Shown here piece after piece: positions 1-5,352 of a stretch of DNA of 5,352 nt (position 1 is its first letter; each line of letters starts with the position of its first letter). The stretch covers positions 1 to 5,352 of the IMG/VR virus record IMGVR_UViG_3300013942_000028; one strand, written 5' to 3'. The position numbers were made by a program, and so were the translations under genes. This DNA is from a virus (Duplodnaviria; Heunggongvirae; Uroviricota; Caudoviricetes). The notes beneath the pieces were generated by a model. The model did not search any database, was not told where the DNA came from, and saw only the letters and a program-made list of their open reading frames with translations.

Positions 1-1
1 A

Positions 2-103
2 ACTGTTTCATTAGCCGAATGGAAAAAATACCGGGTGCTGCTGATGCGAGTTGATACAGCAGACCCGGACTGGCCTACTCCTCCGGCGACTCAGGCCAGT
101 TGA
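2..103 (+). CDS. Tail fiber assembly protein, C-terminal fragment (5' end lies left of the window); presumed active-orientation partner of the convergent tfa at 75..506
   Basis: Frame 2 is open from the window edge to TGA at 101..103 and reads [33 protein letters not shown]. This matches the lambda Tfa-family C-terminus as I recall it ([15 protein letters not shown]...APDIEWP). Not in the ORF track because no start codon falls inside the window. Confidence 0.6.
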
Positions 104-506
104 TATCTGGTGCGCTGGATATGTCCACAGATTCCAGCGCATCGAGATAATCCAGCCACTCGTTATACTGGGCCTTCTCGTCGTCTGTAAGTCGCCCCAG
201 CGCAGCTTTACCCGGCCACTGCTTGCTGTTTATATACTCATTAGCCTGATCGATACGATACTGTTTTTCAGCTTCAGCTGCTGCGATTTCCTCCTCATGG
301 CTTAAAGGTGGAATGTCTACCCATGCCGGCATTCCATCCTCAGTAGCTCCACGAGTTTTACCCTCTGGTGGCATCCCCGAATATTCAGTGAATGTCTCAT
401 CTGAGACGGCTATGAGATCGTCAGGCCAGTTTCTACTCGCTTCATAAACATCTCTGAGCTCATCAGGGTAGAAAGCGTTATTTAATGCTGAATAAAAATA
501 AGCCAT
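75..506 (-). CDS. tfa: Tail fiber assembly protein (Tfa/gpG/U-like chaperone), alternative copy inside the invertible segment
   Basis: 143-aa ORF ending ...[33 protein letters not shown], the Tfa-family C-terminal motif (W..Y/L....VD.S.APDI.WP). It starts 3 nt downstream of the stop of the tail-fiber cassette on the same strand (translational coupling) and converges on, and overlaps by 29 bp, the other tfa 3' end. Confidence 0.8.
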
Positions 507-509
507 TTA

Positions 510-917
510 TTAATACCCCACAGCAAAATAGTTAAACCCGCCAGCGCCGATGGATGATTCAGCGTTGGTTCCTGTCTGATAAGCGCGTAGCTGGAAATTA
601 GTTCTCGTAAAATCCTGGGCGGTTAACGCAAAACCTTGACCTGTACCCCCAACACTCTGGTCTGTTGCAACAACACATAGCGCCCTGGTTGGAAACGCAA
701 TCGGGAATGATACTGTTTCTGGGGATGTTTTCGTTTTGGCTATTGCCCATTGAAGAATTAACCCGCCTGGCAGGTATTGATACCCCGAATCGGCTCGCTG
801 ATTACCAAATGAAGACATGTCCGGAATCTGTCCGGAACCAGTGCCAACATTTTTTTTTGCCGCATCTCCTAAACCAACGTTTAAGAAAATGCAGAGGTAA
901 CAGCTAACTGGCATCAT
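510..917 (-). CDS. Tail fiber protein C-terminal variable (receptor-binding) cassette, currently in the silent orientation. The ATG at 917 is probably not a real start; the cassette is expected to be expressed only after inversion fuses it to a constant N-terminal tail-fiber segment outside the window
   Basis: Translation contains the side-tail-fiber C-terminal signature ...YLPGGLILQWAIAKT...VSFPIAFPTRALCVVATD..., resembling the Mu S/S', P1 and e14/rac Stf variable domains. The hix-like crossover site lies inside codons ~10-18. An in-frame stop sits just upstream (927..929) and no RBS is evident. Confidence 0.7.
   Translation of the reverse strand: MMPVSCYLCIFLNVGLGDAAKKNVGTGSGQIPDMSSFGNQRADSGYQYLPGGLILQWAIAKTKTSPETVSFPIAFPTRALCVVATDQSVGGTGQGFALTAQDFTRTNFQLRAYQTGTNAESSIGAGGFNYFAVGY
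864..889. other. 26-bp invertase crossover site (hix/gix/cix/pix-like), right-hand copy
   Basis: ATCTCCTAAACC-AA-CGTTTAAGAAAA: two imperfect 12-bp inverted half-sites around a central AA. By my recollection of hixL (TTCTTGAAAACCAAGGTTTTTGATAA) 19 of 26 positions match, including the AAACC-AA-(G/C)GTTT core. Confidence 0.6.
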
Positions 918-944
918 CTCCGGTTTTTATTCAGGGGGATGATC

Positions 945-1520
945 ATGCTTATTGGCTATGTACGCGTGTCAACAAATGACCAGAACACCGATTTGCAACG
1001 TAATGCACTGAACTGCGCGGGATGTGAGCGGATTTTTGAGGACAAAATCAGTGGCACTAAGTCCGACAGACCGGGGCTGAAAAAACTACTCAGGACACTA
1101 TCGGCAGGTGACACGCTGGTTGTCTGGAAGCTGGACAGGTTGGGACGCAGTATGCGGCATCTTGTTACGCTGATAGAAGAGTTGCGCCAGCGTGGCGTGA
1201 ATTTCCGAAGCCTGACTGACAGTATTGATACCAGTACCCCAATGGGCCGTTTCTTTTTTCATGTCATGGGTGCCCCGGCTGAAATGGAACGCGAACTGAT
1301 AGTTGAACGTACCAGGGCGGGGATTGCTGCAGCTCGCGACAAAGGCAGAGTAGGTGGACGCCGTCCTAAGTTGACCACCGAACAGTGGGCACAGATTGGA
1401 CGTTTACTAGAGGCCGGAGAATCAAGACAGCGTATTGCACTGATTTTTGATGTGGGCATTTCTACCATTTATAGAAAATTTCCGGCAAATAAGAGCAGTG
1501 AATCCCCTGAATCAGCATAA
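945..1520 (+). CDS. Site-specific serine DNA invertase (Hin/Gin/Pin/Cin family resolvase-invertase)
   Basis: N-terminus MLIGYVRVSTNDQNTDLQRNA with the catalytic Ser in VRVSTNDQ, the GDTLVVWKLDRLGRS and MGRFFFHVMGA...AEMERELIVERT blocks, and a C-terminal HTH (GESRQRIALIFDVGISTIYRKF). Near-identical in motif order to Gin/Pin/Hin as I recall them. GGGGG at 934..938 is a Shine-Dalgarno 6 nt before the ATG at 945. The track's ATG at 939 is in frame and adds two residues; 945 gives the canonical MLIGYV start. Confidence 0.93.
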   Translation: MLIGYVRVSTNDQNTDLQRNALNCAGCERIFEDKISGTKSDRPGLKKLLRTLSAGDTLVVWKLDRLGRSMRHLVTLIEELRQRGVNFRSLTDSIDTSTPMGRFFFHVMGAPAEMERELIVERTRAGIAAARDKGRVGGRRPKLTTEQWAQIGRLLEAGESRQRIALIFDVGISTIYRKFPANKSSESPESA

Positions 1521-2834: not shown

Positions 2835-3350
2835 ATGGCTTTACCACGCAAATTAAAACATCTGAACTTGTTTAACGACGGGAACAACTGGCAGGGGATC
2901 GTTGAGTCGCTGACGCTGCCGAAATTCACCCGCAAATATGAGAAGTATCGCGGCGGCGGTATGCCGGGGGCGGTGGATGTGGATCTGGGACTGGATGACA
3001 GTGCACTGGATACAGAATTTTCCATTGGTGGTACTGAACTGCTGCTGTTTAAGCAGATGGGCATATCCACGGTGGATGGCATCCAGCTGCGCTTTACCGG
3101 CTCTATCCAGCGTGACGATACCGGGGAAGTGCAGGCCGTGGAGCTTGTCGTGCGTGGACGTCACAAAGAAGTGGATTCCGGCGAGTGGAAGACGGGCGAA
3201 AGCAACACCACCAAAGTGACCAGTACCAACAGCTACGCGAAGCTGACCATCAATGGTGAGGTGCTCTATGAAGTGGACCTTATCAACATGGTGGAAATTG
3301 TGGACGGTGTTGACCTGATGGAAGCGCACCGCAACGCCCTCGGCCTCTGA
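2835..3350 (+). CDS. FII: Tail tube protein (P2 gpFII homologue)
   Basis: 171 aa starting MALPRKLKHLNLFNDGNNWQG..., the characteristic P2 FII-type N-terminus. It sits immediately downstream of the sheath gene as in P2, with GGGGA 5 nt before the ATG. Confidence 0.93.
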   Translation: MALPRKLKHLNLFNDGNNWQGIVESLTLPKFTRKYEKYRGGGMPGAVDVDLGLDDSALDTEFSIGGTELLLFKQMGISTVDGIQLRFTGSIQRDDTGEVQAVELVVRGRHKEVDSGEWKTGESNTTKVTSTNSYAKLTINGEVLYEVDLINMVEIVDGVDLMEAHRNALGL

Positions 3351-3404: not shown

Positions 3405-3707
3405 ATGAGCGATAAACAGACTGAAAAGACCATTCAACTGGATACCCCCATCATGCGCGGTAAAACAGAAATTACCGAAATTGTGTTGCGTAAACCGCAG
3501 TCTGGTGCGCTGCGCGGCACACGCCTGCAGGCCATTATGGATATGGATGTGAACGCGATGATGACCGTGATCCCCCGCATCTCCAGTCCGGCAGTGACTG
3601 CACAGGAAATCGCAGAGATGGACCCGGCAGATCTCACAGCCATGTCGGTTGAGGTTGTCACTTTTTTGTTGAAGAAGTCGGTGCTTGCCGGTTTACCGAC
3701 AGCCTGA
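3405..3707 (+). CDS. E: Tail assembly chaperone (P2 gpE homologue; lambda gpG analogue)
   Basis: 100-aa ORF between the tube and tape measure genes, the conserved position of E. It contains an in-frame slippery heptamer near its 3' end. Confidence 0.85.
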   Translation: MSDKQTEKTIQLDTPIMRGKTEITEIVLRKPQSGALRGTRLQAIMDMDVNAMMTVIPRISSPAVTAQEIAEMDPADLTAMSVEVVTFLLKKSVLAGLPTA

Positions 3708-3841
3708 CGGTTGACGATCTGGTGGCAGATATCGCCACCATTTTTCACTGGCCGCCATCCGTTACTGACGTTATGCCGCTGACCGAAGTGCTGGAATGGC
3801 GGTATAAAGCGATTCAGAGAAGCGGGGCCAACGATGAGTGA
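3405..3841 (+). CDS. Tail assembly chaperone frameshift product E+E' (frame 0 through 3668, then -1 frame to the TGA at 3839..3841), about 145 aa
   Basis: T TTT TTG at 3662..3668 is in the correct zero-frame register (act-ttt-ttg). The -1 frame from 3668 stays open for 57 codons (VEEVGACRFTDSLTVDDLVADIATIFHWPPSVTDVMPLTEVLEWRYKAIQRSGAND) and terminates 8 nt into the tape measure gene, as described for P2 E/E' and lambda G/GT. Confidence 0.7.
3662..3668 (+). other. Programmed -1 ribosomal frameshift slippery heptanucleotide (X XXY YYZ = T TTT TTG)
   Basis: Seen directly in the sequence, in the required register relative to the E reading frame. Confidence 0.7.
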
Positions 3842-5352
3842 TAACAACCTGCGCCTGCAGGTCATTCTTAATGCGGTTGACAAACTCACCCGCCCATTCC
3901 GTACTGCACAGGCCAGTTCGAAAGAGCTGGCTGGTGCAATCAGAAACTCCCGTGACGCATTAAAGCAACTCAATCAGGCGGGTAACAGCCTGGAAAAATT
4001 TCGCAAGCTGCAGGCCGATAACAAGAAGTTAGGCGACAGGCTGAACTATGCCAGACAGAAGGCTAATTTGCTTAGCTCTGAGCTGGAGGCGATGGAACAA
4101 CCATCACAACGGCACCTTGTGGCTTTAGGTCGGCAAACGCTGGCAGTCCAACGCCTGGAAGAACAACAAAAATATTTGCAGAAGCAAACGGCGCTTGTGC
4201 GTGCAGAACTGTACCGGGCGGGAATTTCTGCGAAAGATGATGCGGGAGCAACTGCCCGTTTAGCCCGTGAAACATCACGTTATAACCAGGAATTGTCGAA
4301 ACAGGAGGCGCGGCTGAAGCGACTGGGTGAAGCTCAGCGCAGGATGAATGCGGCGCGTGCCAGTTATGCCCGTTCGCTGGAGGTGCGCGATCGTATTGCA
4401 GGAGCCGGAGCCACTACCACGGCTGCAGGGCTGGCAATGGGGACGCCAGTGATGGCGGCAGTAAAAAGCTATACCAGCATGGAAGATGCCATGAAAGGTG
4501 TGGCAAAGCAGGTCAATGGTCTGCGTGACGATAATGGAAACCGTACTGCACGTTTTTATGAAATGCAGGATGCCATCAAGGCTGCCAGCGAACAGTTGCC
4601 GATGGAAAACGGTGCGGTGGACTTCGCTGCACTGGTTGAAGGTGGTGCGCGCATGAACGTCGCAAACCCTGACGACAGCTGGGAAGACCAGAAACGTGAC
4701 CTGCTGGCCTTCGCCAGTACGGCAGCAAAGGCGGCAACAGCCTTTGAGCTGCCAGCGGATGAACTGTCAGAAAGTCTGGGGAAAATCGCCCAGCTCTACA
4801 AAATACCTACCCGCAATATTGAACAGCTCGGCGATGCGCTGAACTATCTGGATGATAACGCCATGTCGAAAGGGGCGGACATCATTGATGTCATGCAACG
4901 TCTGGGCGGTGTGGCTGACCGTCTGGATTATCGTAAAGCGGCGGCACTGGGTTCCACCTTTCTGACACTGGGCGCTGCGCCGGAGGTTGCAGCCAGTGCA
5001 GCAAACGCGATGGTGCGTGAATTGTCCATTGCCACCATGCAAAGCAAGAGTTTCTTTGAAGGGATGAATCTGCTGAAACTCAATCCTGAAGTGATTGAAA
5101 AGCAGATGACGAAGGATGCGATGGGAACTATCCAGCGTGTGCTGGAGAAGGTGAACGCACTGCCGCAGGACAAGCGTCTGTCTGCCATGACCATGTTGTT
5201 TGGTAAAGAGTTTGGTGATGACGCGGCGAAACTGGCAAACAACCTTCCGGAACTGCAGCGCCAGCTAAAACTGACAGCGGGCAATGATGCGCTCGGTTCC
5301 ATGCAGAAAGAATCCGACATCAACAAAGACTCACTTTCTGCTCAGTGGTTGC
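3834..5352 (+). CDS. T: Tail tape measure protein (P2 gpT homologue), N-terminal ~506 codons; continues past the window end
   Basis: ATG at 3834 preceded by GGGG 8 nt upstream. I translated the frame by hand and it stays open to the window end with no stop. N-terminus MSDNNLRLQVILNAVDKLTRPFRTAQASSKELAG... followed by Q/L/E/R/A-rich heptad-like stretches typical of tape measure proteins. Position immediately after E/E' is conserved. Confidence 0.9.
   Translation, partial: MSDNNLRLQVILNAVDKLTRPFRTAQASSKELAGAIRNSRDALKQLNQAGNSLEKFRKLQADNKKLGDRLNYARQKANLLSSELEAMEQPSQRHLVALGRQTLAVQRLEEQQKYLQKQTALVRAELYRAGISAKDDAGATARLARETSRYNQELSKQEARLKRLGEAQRRMNAARASYARSLEVRDRIAGAGATTTAAGLAMGTPVMAAVKSYTSMEDAMKGVAKQVNGLRDDNGNRTARFYEMQDAIKAASEQLPMENGAVDFAALVEGGARMNVANPDDSWEDQKRDLLAFASTAAKAATAFELPADELSESLGKIAQLYKIPTRNIEQLGDALNYLDDNAMSKGADIIDVMQRLGGVADRLDYRKAAALGSTFLTLGAAPEVAASAANAMVRELSIATMQSKSFFEGMNLLKLNPEVIEKQMTKDAMGTIQRVLEKVNALPQDKRLSAMTMLFGKEFGDDAAKLANNLPELQRQLKLTAGNDALGSMQKESDINKDSLSAQWL

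What the first reader, a model, noticed from the sequence alone, without database searches (positions are those of the whole stretch)
2..506. Convergent, 3'-overlapping pair of tail fiber assembly genes marks the centre of the invertible segment
The plus-strand tfa fragment ends at 103 and the minus-strand tfa ends at 75, so the two stop regions overlap by 29 bp on opposite strands. Both C-termini carry the Tfa motif but differ in sequence, consistent with two chaperones each matched to its own receptor-binding domain. If the segment is roughly symmetric about this point it is ~1.6-1.8 kb, closer to the e14 P segment than to the 3-kb Mu G segment.
Basis: partly seen in the sequence, partly recalled or inferred. 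Interest (0 to 1): 0.4.

Follow-up and report, generated by a model that had tools for sequence, protein, structure and literature searches.

The report
Invertible phage tail-fibre switch, e14 type
The two overlapping, converging tail-fibre chaperone genes are real and lie at the middle of a 1.5-kb flip-flop DNA segment that lets a P2-like E. coli prophage swap the tip of its tail fibre, an arrangement long known from the e14 prophage of E. coli K-12, so the finding is correct but ordinary.

Summary
Observation confirmed. A plus-strand tfa 3' end (2-103) and a complete minus-strand tfa (75-506, Caudo_TAP E=2e-38) converge and overlap by 29 bp. Two public contigs are 100% identical to the whole window. 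They show that the plus-strand frame is a full 139/143-aa Tfa (Caudo_TAP E=1e-33). They also show a 1,547-bp segment bounded by two inverted 26-bp Hin/Gin/Pin-type crossover sites, the right one at window 864-889. Its midpoint falls at window 103. A Pin-family serine invertase (945-1520) lies just outside, followed by P2 tail genes FI, FII, E/E' and T. The same segment (at least 98.5% identical) occurs in both orientations in three pairs of matching phage backbones, with exchange exactly at the central TT/AA dinucleotide. In-silico flipping gives an in-frame 471-aa fibre that matches a natural one. The 29-bp overlap is also annotated in e14 (tfaP/tfaE) and in phages Cartapus, KP12 and 500465-1. 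Mu U/U' do not overlap. This is therefore an e14 P-type host-range switch and is already known. Side notes: this invertase carries a rare L111P change at a helix-E rotation-interface residue, so the switch may be locked here, and a T9 tract at 850-858 is frameshift-polymorphic among copies.

The parts
1..876 (.). Right-hand 876 nt of the 1,547-bp invertible segment. The left 671 nt lie upstream of the window, at L003 4386-5056.
   Evidence: Window 1 corresponds to L003 5057 at 100% identity. The segment is L003 4386-5932, between the crossover centres. It recurs as an exact full-length unit at 98.5% identity or more in 19 loci.
2..103 (+). Last 33 codons plus stop of the + strand tail fibre assembly gene (tfa). 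This is the chaperone of the fibre tip that is currently fused to H.
   Evidence: Translation. The full gene is L003 4740 (or 4728)-5159. Caudo_TAP E=1e-33 was obtained on the sequence-identical protein encoded in L001.
75..506 (-). Complete tail fibre assembly gene tfa' (143 aa). This is the chaperone of the currently unexpressed fibre tip.
   Evidence: ORF. Caudo_TAP E=1.9e-38 over profile positions 3-131 of 131. RefSeq annotates the identical protein as WP_060615093.1, tail fiber assembly protein.
75..103 (.). The 29-bp stretch that codes on both strands: + TPPATQAS*, - (I)NWPESPEE*. It is the conserved joint of e14-type segments.
   Evidence: The same 29-bp overlap appears in e14, Cartapus, KP12, 500465-1, L001 and L002. 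The core sequence is conserved.
510..876 (-). Alternative fibre C-terminal cassette (Hv', about 122 codons, Gp53-like_C). In this orientation it lacks the H N-terminal part. The mechanical ORF runs on to an ATG at 915-917, outside the segment.
   Evidence: Gp53-like_C E=1e-18. In L002 and L023 the same cassette is fused in frame to a full fibre gene. In-silico inversion gives a 471-aa H.
850..858 (.). T9 homopolymer (A9 in the coding strand of Hv'), just inside the crossover site. Its length sets the reading frame of the alternative fibre tip.
   Evidence: The run is A9 in 9 and A8 in 10 of the 19 copies tabulated. A8 splits H in the flipped locus L021.
864..889 (.). Right 26-bp crossover site ATCTCCTAAACC AA CGTTTAAGAAAA, with the exchange point at 876/877.
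   Evidence: A half-site scan finds only this site in the window and only two sites in 12.5 kb of L003, against 0.04 per shuffle. The same scan recovers the annotated Mu G boundaries. Recombinant junctions in L002 switch partner exactly at the central dinucleotide.
945..1520 (+). Serine DNA invertase of the Hin/Gin/Cin/Pin family (191 aa, Ser9, C-terminal HTH). It carries an unusual Pro111, codon 1275-1277.
   Evidence: Resolvase E=9e-52 and HTH_7 E=2e-14. It is 73% identical to Mu Gin and 83% to e14 PinE. It matches the Gin structure 3uj3 at E=4e-92. Leu occupies this position in 119 of 120 family representatives.

Best explanation
The window covers the right half of an e14 P-segment-type invertible tail-fibre switch in a P2-like (Peduoviridae) prophage of E. 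coli/Shigella, followed by its invertase and the P2 tail genes FI, FII, E/E' and T.

Layout. The full unit is H(constant) | left site | Hv - tfa > < tfa' - Hv' | right site | invertase. In the orientation sequenced, the late tail operon reads H fused to the left tip cassette and then the + tfa, whose last 33 codons are window 2-103. On the opposite strand, Hv' (510-876) and tfa' (75-506) have no H N-terminus and are not part of that transcript.

Mechanism. The serine invertase (945-1520) synapses the two inverted 26-bp sites, cuts at the central TT/AA, rotates the strands and religates. This flips 1,547 bp. H is then fused in frame to Hv', giving a 471-aa fibre, and tfa' comes to lie 3 nt downstream. 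The virion therefore carries a different receptor-binding tip, folded by its own chaperone.

The overlap. The two tfa genes meet tail to tail at the segment midpoint and share 29 bp. This joint is conserved and inherited in e14-type segments. It forces one Tfa to end in WPTPPxxQA(S/R) and the other in WPE(L/S)PE(A/E/V).

Shown: gene identities, sites, segment limits, midpoint, overlap, in-frame fusion, and natural occurrence of both orientations with exchange at the core dinucleotide. Inferred from the Mu, P1 and e14 paradigms: host-range change, chaperone-tip specificity, Fis/enhancer dependence, and silence of the distal cassette.
For: Gene identities come from Pfam. The whole-window identity to L003 and L005 supplies the missing left half. 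Two and only two crossover sites are found, 1,547 bp apart and in inverted orientation with complementary TT/AA cores. The segment midpoint is window 103. The segment is found intact at 98.5% identity or more in both orientations relative to H and the invertase. Three backbone pairs differ essentially by the flip: L003/L020, L015/L023 and L018/L021. The junction sequences of L001 versus L002 are exact reciprocal recombinants at the central dinucleotide. The in-silico flip gives an in-frame 471-aa H that is 453/471 identical to the natural L023 H. The e14 tfaP/tfaE pair has the same 29-bp overlap and pinE in the same position. The e14 inverted repeat TTGGTTTGGGAGAAGG reported in PMC12529663 is nearly identical to the left site here. 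P2-like prophage inversions have been seen experimentally in E. coli (PMC4272514). The P2 tail synteny is shown.
Against: No read-level or experimental evidence of inversion exists for this exact prophage. All four long contigs that carry the intact invertase allele have the same orientation. The invertase has Pro at position 111, where Leu is otherwise invariant. The equivalent Hin Leu112 is part of the helix-E rotation interface, so the enzyme may be impaired. The Fis enhancer could not be demonstrated; only one conserved match to a degenerate consensus was found. Receptor specificities and chaperone matching are inferred, not tested.
Confidence: 0.9

Rival explanations
1. Same architecture, but in this particular prophage the switch is a locked relic. 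The L111P invertase would be inactive, so the segment stays in one orientation unless another Pin-family invertase in the cell flips it in trans.
For: Pro111 replaces a Leu found in 119 of 120 family representatives, in Gin, in PinE and in the relatives that are about 95% identical at the DNA level. Hin Leu112, together with Phe105 and Met109, forms the proposed ratchet of the rotating interface in helix E (PMC4513852). All contigs with the intact P111 allele share one orientation. Relatives show other signs of decay: the invertase is deleted in L001, L016 and L024, it is frameshifted in L020, and A8 frameshifts occur in Hv'. Trans-inversion of e14 by PinQ is documented (PMC12529663).
Against: L020 carries the same P111 allele DNA and is in the flipped orientation, so inversion did occur in this lineage, either before or after the substitution or in trans. 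The ORF is otherwise intact and is present on at least 19 contigs. Hin L112C retains cleavage activity (PMC2724282). The effect of Pro was not tested.
Confidence: 0.3
2. The invertase-proximal cassette is not silent. The 135-aa ORF 510-917, with its ATG outside the segment, would be expressed as a free Gp53-like receptor-binding-domain protein that protects the lysogen against other phages, as reported for e14 StfE2. The inversion would then also toggle a defence phenotype.
For: In both orientations an ORF with the leader MMPVSCYLCIFLNVGLG reads from outside the segment into whichever cassette is distal. The ATGATG start and leader are conserved in e14 and in several P2-like backbones. StfE2 of e14 is reported to block T2 adsorption (PMC12529663). 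RefSeq annotates the ORF as a gp53-like domain-containing protein.
Against: The leader is interrupted by stop codons in the L018/L021 backbone. Its substitutions are mostly non-synonymous. No promoter-like site for it was found in the 1-1700 scan. This 40-nt stretch must also hold the outer half-site and the invertase promoter or leader, which would explain its conservation. A8 frameshift copies are common.
Confidence: 0.12
3. The 29-bp overlap acts as a structural element, for example a bidirectional terminator hairpin between the two cassettes, rather than simply as shared coding sequence.
For: The inverted repeat ACTGGCCT/AGGCCAGT (65-72 / 93-100) forms the stem of the minimum-free-energy fold. 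Mu has a GC-rich hairpin in the gap between U and U'.
Against: The folding energy is not exceptional: z = -1.0, and 31 of 200 shuffles fold at least as well. There is no T-run, and the scan finds no terminator-like site there. The repeat is fully explained by TGG-CCT (Trp-Pro) codons on both strands.
Confidence: 0.03

Closest known systems
P segment of the e14 cryptic prophage of E. coli K-12 (stfP-tfaP / tfaE-stfE, pinE)
   Same: The gene order is the same, with the invertase just outside the right site. The 29-bp convergent tfa overlap is the same, with a near-identical core (TGGCCTAC.CCTCCGGC....CAGGCCAG). The crossover sites are near-identical, with a TT/AA core. The invertase is 83% identical. 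The fibre tips carry a Gp53-like_C domain (PMC12529663).
   Different: The segment here is 1,547 bp against 1,827 bp centre to centre (1,797 bp between the repeats, as published). The Tfa and fibre-tip sequences are different alleles: TfaE is 200 aa, against 143 aa here. The host element here is a P2-like prophage, complete across the 12.6 kb of context examined, rather than a defective lambdoid remnant. The invertase has Pro111.
Invertible tail-fibre segments of P2-like phages (Escherichia phages Cartapus and 500465-1, the record named Klebsiella phage KP12, pro483; Fels-2/Fin of Salmonella)
   Same: The backbone is the same: H constant part 93-94%, invertase region 96% and sheath 96-98% identical at the DNA level. 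The position between H and FI is the same, as are the 29-bp overlap and the crossover sites. The Fels-2 and pro483 relationship rests on the invertase hit list and on prior knowledge only.
   Different: The variable cassettes inside the segment are different, with only about 70% identity around the joint. Their invertases are 188 aa with Leu111.
G segment of phage Mu (S-U / U'-S', gin) and C segment of P1
   Same: The logic is the same: a constant fibre N-terminus, two alternative tip-plus-chaperone cassettes in inverse orientation, 26-bp sites, and a Gin-type invertase adjacent (73% identical). The Tfa C-terminal motif is shared.
   Different: The Mu segment is 3,058 bp. U and U' do not overlap; they are separated by a 28-bp gap that holds a hairpin. 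The core dinucleotide is TC/GA. The fibre tips are much longer. P1 was not examined here.

Membership tests
Hin/Gin/Cin/Pin serine-invertase DNA inversion systems | Small serine recombinase with an N-terminal catalytic domain (active-site Ser9/10) and a C-terminal HTH | tested here: met
   Resolvase E=9e-52 and HTH_7 E=2e-14. The YVRVST Ser9 is aligned with Gin and PinE. The protein matches Gin structure 3uj3 at E=4e-92.
Hin/Gin/Cin/Pin serine-invertase DNA inversion systems | Two 26-bp crossover sites in inverted orientation, each made of two imperfect 12-bp half-sites around a 2-bp core, with matching cores | tested here: met
   Window 864-889 and L003 4373-4398, with cores AA and TT. These are the only two hits in 12.5 kb, against 0.04 expected per shuffle. 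The same scan recovers the Mu gix sites at the annotated boundaries.
Hin/Gin/Cin/Pin serine-invertase DNA inversion systems | Fis-bound recombinational enhancer inside the 5' part of the invertase gene | tested here: inconclusive
   One match to the degenerate Fis consensus at +71 to +85 (window 1015-1029) is conserved in Gin, PinE, Cartapus and L002. A second site at the canonical 48-bp spacing was not identified with this pattern.
Hin/Gin/Cin/Pin serine-invertase DNA inversion systems | The segment actually inverts, with exchange at the core dinucleotide | tested here: met
   Comparative evidence only. The same segment occurs in both orientations in the matched backbones L003/L020, L015/L023 and L018/L021. 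Reciprocal junctions are seen in L001 versus L002. This was not shown for the exact source strain.
Hin/Gin/Cin/Pin serine-invertase DNA inversion systems | Conserved hydrophobic helix-E rotation-interface residues (Hin Phe105, Met109, Leu112) | tested here: not met
   Phe and Met are present, but the Leu112 equivalent is Pro111 (PMC4513852). This bears on activity, not on homology.
e14 P-segment-type tail-fibre switch | Order tip cassette - tfa > < tfa' - tip cassette', with the invertase outside the right site and the crossover inside the fibre ORF at the ...LGLG(E/D) codons | tested here: met
e14 P-segment-type tail-fibre switch | Convergent tfa genes overlapping by 29 bp with the conserved WP-coding core | tested here: met
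   Window 75-103. The overlap is identical in length in e14, Cartapus, KP12, 500465-1, L001 and L002.
e14 P-segment-type tail-fibre switch | Segment length about 1.5-1.9 kb | tested here: met
   1,547 bp here. The comparators range from 1,531 to 1,877 bp, against 3,058 bp for Mu.
Mu G / P1 C-type segment | Segment of about 3 kb or more, with non-overlapping U/U' separated by an intergenic hairpin | tested here: not met
   The segment is 1,547 bp and the tfa genes overlap. Mu U ends at L011 3003 and U' at 3032.
Tail fibre assembly proteins (Pfam Caudo_TAP, PF02413) | Full-length match above the Pfam gathering score | tested here: met
   132 bits and 116.7 bits against a cut-off of 22.1. Chaperone activity itself cannot be tested with these tools.
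P2-like (Peduoviridae) tail gene cluster | Synteny V-W-J-I-H-(tfa)-FI-FII-E/E'-T-U-D with the E/E' -1 frameshift site | tested here: met
   Gene tables. TTTTTTG at 3662-3668 gives a 145-aa E+E' product. The nearest phages are classified as Peduoviridae.

The most novel reading that the evidence does not exclude
The switch may do more than change the virion's fibre tip. In either orientation, an ORF starting at a conserved ATGATG between the invertase gene and the crossover site (window 915-917) reads into the distal cassette. It could produce a free 130-135-aa Gp53-like receptor-binding-domain protein, as claimed in 2025 for e14 StfE2. If so, a functional P2-like prophage would toggle an orientation-dependent superinfection-exclusion phenotype. 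The rare L111P invertase allele and the A8/A9 tract would then fix or silence one state.
Probability: 0.12. Interest if true: 0.4.

Novelty: already known. Interest (0 to 1): 0.12.

Why it matters
The finding matters little beyond correct annotation.

Three points are useful in practice. First, gene callers will report a truncated 'gp53-like' ORF and two overlapping tfa genes here, and this is expected rather than an error. Second, assemblies may show either orientation. Third, the 29-bp tfa overlap together with the 26-bp sites is a reliable signature for recognising e14-type segments.

The L111P invertase allele is a naturally occurring substitution at a residue proposed to gate subunit rotation in Hin. 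It could interest people who study serine recombinases.

Tried and rejected
Exact-pattern scans for the invertase-side junction (both orientations allowed) and for the A8/A9 tract found nothing. These covered the GTDB species-representative genomes and IMG/VR. Orientation and tract-length statistics therefore had to come from 24 loci fetched by protein look-up and BLAST.

The generic inverted-repeat finder missed the short crossover sites. A half-site scoring scan was written instead.

A terminator or hairpin role for the overlap was rejected.

A regulatory, phase-variable role for the T9 tract was considered. It was judged less likely than decay. In complete E. coli genomes the copies in the expressed position are A9. 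The A8 copies sit in silent cassettes of invertase-less prophages. The two flipped A8 loci have a broken H, and one of them also has a broken invertase.

Identification of the Fis enhancer by consensus was inconclusive.

The contig ends of L006 and L007, inside or near the segment, do not coincide with the crossover point. They were not used as evidence of mixed orientation.

Full report
**What is in the window.**
The ORF list and Pfam scans give the following features, left to right.
- 2-103 (+): the last 33 codons and stop of a gene ending ...[28 protein letters not shown].
- 75-506 (-): a complete 143-aa tail fibre assembly protein (Caudo_TAP, E=1.9e-38).
- 510-917 (-): a Gp53-like_C fibre-tip ORF (E=1e-18).
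- 945-1520 (+): a 191-aa serine recombinase with a resolvase catalytic domain and HTH_7 (E=9e-52 and 2e-14).
- Downstream: the P2 tail genes sheath FI (1653-2825), tube FII (2835-3350), E (3405-3707), E' (3722-3841) and the start of tape measure T (from 3834, running off the window end). The T start is placed by mapping the annotated tape-measure CDS of L003 (8890-11967) onto window coordinates.

The stop of the + gene is at 101-103 and the stop of the - gene at 75-77. Positions 75-103, 29 bp, therefore code on both strands.

**Recovering the missing left half.**
An exact-protein look-up of the invertase returned contigs L003 and L005. Both are 100% identical to all 5,352 bases of the window, with window 1 corresponding to L003 5057. 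In L003 the + frame extends to a complete Tfa of 139 aa from the ATG at 4740, or 143 aa from the upstream GTG. The sequence-identical protein encoded in L001 scores Caudo_TAP E=1e-33. This Tfa lies directly after a 465-aa P2 H-type fibre gene that has a Phage_tail_fib N-terminus and a Gp53-like_C C-terminus. The exact invertase protein is deposited under Escherichia coli and Shigella sonnei. The nearest phages are Peduoviridae.

**Limits, size and centre of the segment.**
A half-site scan with the consensus TTCTCNNAAACC, two halves around a 2-bp core, finds exactly two sites in 12.5 kb of L003.
- Left site: TTCTCGCATACC-TT-GGTTTGGGAGAG at L003 4373-4398, inside H.
- Right site: ATCTCCTAAACC-AA-CGTTTAAGAAAA at L003 5920-5945, which is window 864-889.

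Shuffled sequence gives 0.04 hits. The same scan recovers the two Mu gix sites at the annotated G boundaries.

Centre to centre the segment is 1,547 bp. Its midpoint is L003 5159, which is window 103, the last base of the + tfa stop. The centre of the overlap (position 89) is 14 bp from the midpoint.

The same measure gives 1,827 bp for e14, 1,531 for Cartapus, 1,877 for KP12, 1,831 for 500465-1 and 3,058 for Mu. The published e14 figure of 1,797 bp counts the DNA between the 16-bp repeats (PMC12529663).

**The two chaperones and the two tips.**
The Tfa pair is 41% identical (E=1e-25). Identity is 51% over the first 80 alignment columns and 26% over the rest. The two fibre tips downstream of the crossover point are 32% identical, and both are Gp53-like_C. 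This is the pattern expected for two tip-plus-chaperone modules. That each chaperone is specific for its own tip is an inference from the Mu, P1 and P2 literature, not a result here.

**Evidence that the segment flips.**
The 1,547-bp unit was used as a BLAST query against all fetched loci. It is present full-length at 98.5% identity or more in 19 loci. The flanks of these loci range from 100% identical to unrelated.

Relative to H and the invertase, the segment is in the window orientation in L001, L003-L005, L008, L015, L016, L018 and L024. It is flipped in L002, L020, L021 and L023. Three pairs share a backbone and differ by the flip: L003/L020, L015/L023 and L018/L021.

The junctions of L001 and L002 are reciprocal recombinants that change partner exactly at the central dinucleotide. 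This is what the 2-bp staggered cut of Hin/Gin-family enzymes produces, according to established knowledge of that family.

Flipping L003 in silico gives an in-frame 471-aa H ending ...LLAYLGLGDAAKKNVGTGSGQ...FAVGY, followed 3 nt later by tfa'. It is 453/471 identical to the natural 471-aa H of L023. Inversion of e14 and of P2-like prophage segments in growing E. coli cultures has been shown experimentally (PMC4272514; PMC12529663).

**The overlap is a conserved, already annotated feature.**
In E. coli K-12, tfaP and tfaE of e14 overlap by exactly 29 bp (L010 3518-3546). The same number holds for Cartapus, KP12, 500465-1 and the two E. coli prophages L001 and L002. The core DNA, TGGCCTAC.CCTCCGGC....CAGGCCAG, is nearly invariant.

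As a consequence, every pair compared has one Tfa ending WPTPPxxQA(S/R)* and one ending WPE(L/S)PE(A/E/V)*. The tail type is set by the strand, not by the rest of the protein. The body of the window's Tfa' is 62% identical to e14 TfaP over residues 69-141, yet it carries the TfaE-type tail.

In Mu the two chaperone genes do not overlap. There is a 28-bp gap with a GC-rich hairpin.

The overlap region folds no better than shuffled sequence (z = -1.0), and no terminator-like site is predicted there. I therefore read it as shared coding sequence, not as an RNA element. A BLAST search with the joint finds it in 73 of 5,426 complete E. coli genomes, nearly always under two annotated tfa genes.

**Is the switch active in this prophage?**
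This is the one uncertain point. The invertase has Pro at residue 111 (codon CCG, 1275-1277) in the otherwise invariant GALAEMERE motif.
- Leu is present in Gin, in PinE, in the relatives whose invertase region is 94-96% identical at the DNA level, and in 119 of the 120 best family representatives. No representative has Pro.
- The equivalent Hin residue, Leu112, lies in helix E. With Phe105 and Met109 it is proposed to form the ratchet of the rotating interface (PMC4513852).
- Hin L112C keeps cleavage activity (PMC2724282). A proline has not been tested.
- All long contigs with the intact P111 allele have the window orientation.
- The nearest relative, L020, has the same allele plus a 1-nt deletion at window 967 that frameshifts the gene before Ser9. 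Its segment is flipped.

Inversion has therefore happened in this lineage, but the data do not say by which enzyme or when. Trans-inversion by other Pin proteins is documented. I put about 0.3 on the switch being locked in this strain.

**Other things seen.**
- The T9 run at 850-858 (A9 in the Hv' coding strand) is A8 in 10 of 19 copies. A8 breaks the frame, and the flipped locus L021 has H split into 312 + 102 aa. In complete E. coli genomes the expressed copies are A9, and the A8 copies are silent cassettes in prophages that lack the invertase gene. Mutational decay at a slippery tract is therefore the simpler reading.
- L001, L016 and L024 have lost the invertase gene cleanly but keep both sites.
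- The ORF 510-917 starts at an ATGATG outside the segment. Its leader, MMPVSCYLCIFLNVGLG, is conserved from e14 to the P2-like backbones but is broken by stops in L018/L021. It is the analogue of e14 StfE/StfE2, which was recently reported to block T2 adsorption.
- The same segment also sits in a Mu-like prophage and in other myovirus-type prophages (L017, L019, L022). This illustrates cassette exchange between unrelated phages.
- The P2 E/E+E' -1 frameshift site TTTTTTG is at 3662-3668 and gives a 145-aa product.

**Verdict.**
The feature is an e14 P-type invertible tail-fibre host-range switch in a P2-like E. coli/Shigella prophage. The kind is textbook. This very segment and its overlapping tfa pair are already annotated in RefSeq genomes at 99.6% identity. 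Novelty: already known. Interest: low.

Noticed in passing
window 1275-1277 (codon 111 of the invertase, 945-1520): The invertase has Pro (CCG) where Gin, PinE, the relatives about 95% identical at the DNA level, and 119 of 120 family representatives have Leu. The position equals Hin Leu112, a helix-E rotation-interface 'ratchet' residue. The enzyme may be impaired or altered. The exact protein is deposited from E. coli and Shigella sonnei.
   Followed up: partly
window 850-858: The T9 homopolymer (A9 in the Hv' coding strand) just inside the crossover site is A8 in 10 of 19 near-identical copies. This includes L004, the same phage as the window. A8 frameshifts the alternative fibre tip. In complete E. 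coli genomes the expressed copies are A9 and the A8 copies are silent, which suggests decay at a slippery tract rather than regulation.
   Followed up: partly
L020 5246-5270 (equivalent to window 967): The closest relative of the window's prophage is 99.7% identical across the invertase region. It has a 1-nt deletion that frameshifts the invertase before the catalytic Ser9. Its segment is in the flipped orientation, with an A8 tract, so both the switch and the fibre appear broken there.
   Followed up: partly
L001 6895-7023 (equivalent to window ~897-1524 missing); also L016, L024: Some E. coli prophages carry the same segment at 99.9% identity and both crossover sites, but lack the invertase gene entirely. 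This is a clean deletion of about 630 bp between the right site and the sheath gene. Inversion there would need an invertase supplied in trans.
   Followed up: partly
window 878-917 (- strand), start of ORF 510-917: An ATGATG start and the leader MMPVSCYLCIFLNVGLG lie outside the segment, between the crossover site and the invertase gene. In either orientation this gives the distal cassette its own start codon. The leader is conserved in e14 and the P2-like backbones and is broken by stops in L018/L021. It is analogous to e14 StfE/StfE2, reported to block T2 adsorption.
   Followed up: partly
window 3662-3668: The P2-type slippery sequence T TTT TTG lies in gene E. A -1 shift joins E (3405-3707) to E' (ending at 3841) and gives a 145-aa product. 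This is the conserved tail-chaperone frameshift of P2-like phages.
   Followed up: yes
L017, L019, L022 (segment at 3632-5177 in each): The identical 1,547-bp segment (98.6-99.8% identical) is embedded in non-P2 backbones. These include a Mu-like baseplate cluster (Mu Gp45/46/48 families). One locus has an integrase next to the segment and no invertase. The whole inversion cassette appears to move between unrelated myoviruses.
   Followed up: no
window 75-103 and the equivalent joints in L010, L012, L013, L014: In all six segments compared, one Tfa ends WPTPPxxQA(S/R)* and its partner ends WPE(L/S)PE(A/E/V)*. The shared 29-nt overlap dictates this. The body of the window's Tfa' is TfaP-like (62% identical), yet it carries the TfaE-type tail, so the joint looks like a mosaic boundary.
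   Followed up: partly
window 906-925 (+ strand): A weak terminator-like hairpin followed by TTTATT lies between the right crossover site and the invertase start. It could insulate the invertase from read-through out of the fibre operon. It overlaps the ATGATG leader on the other strand.
   Followed up: no
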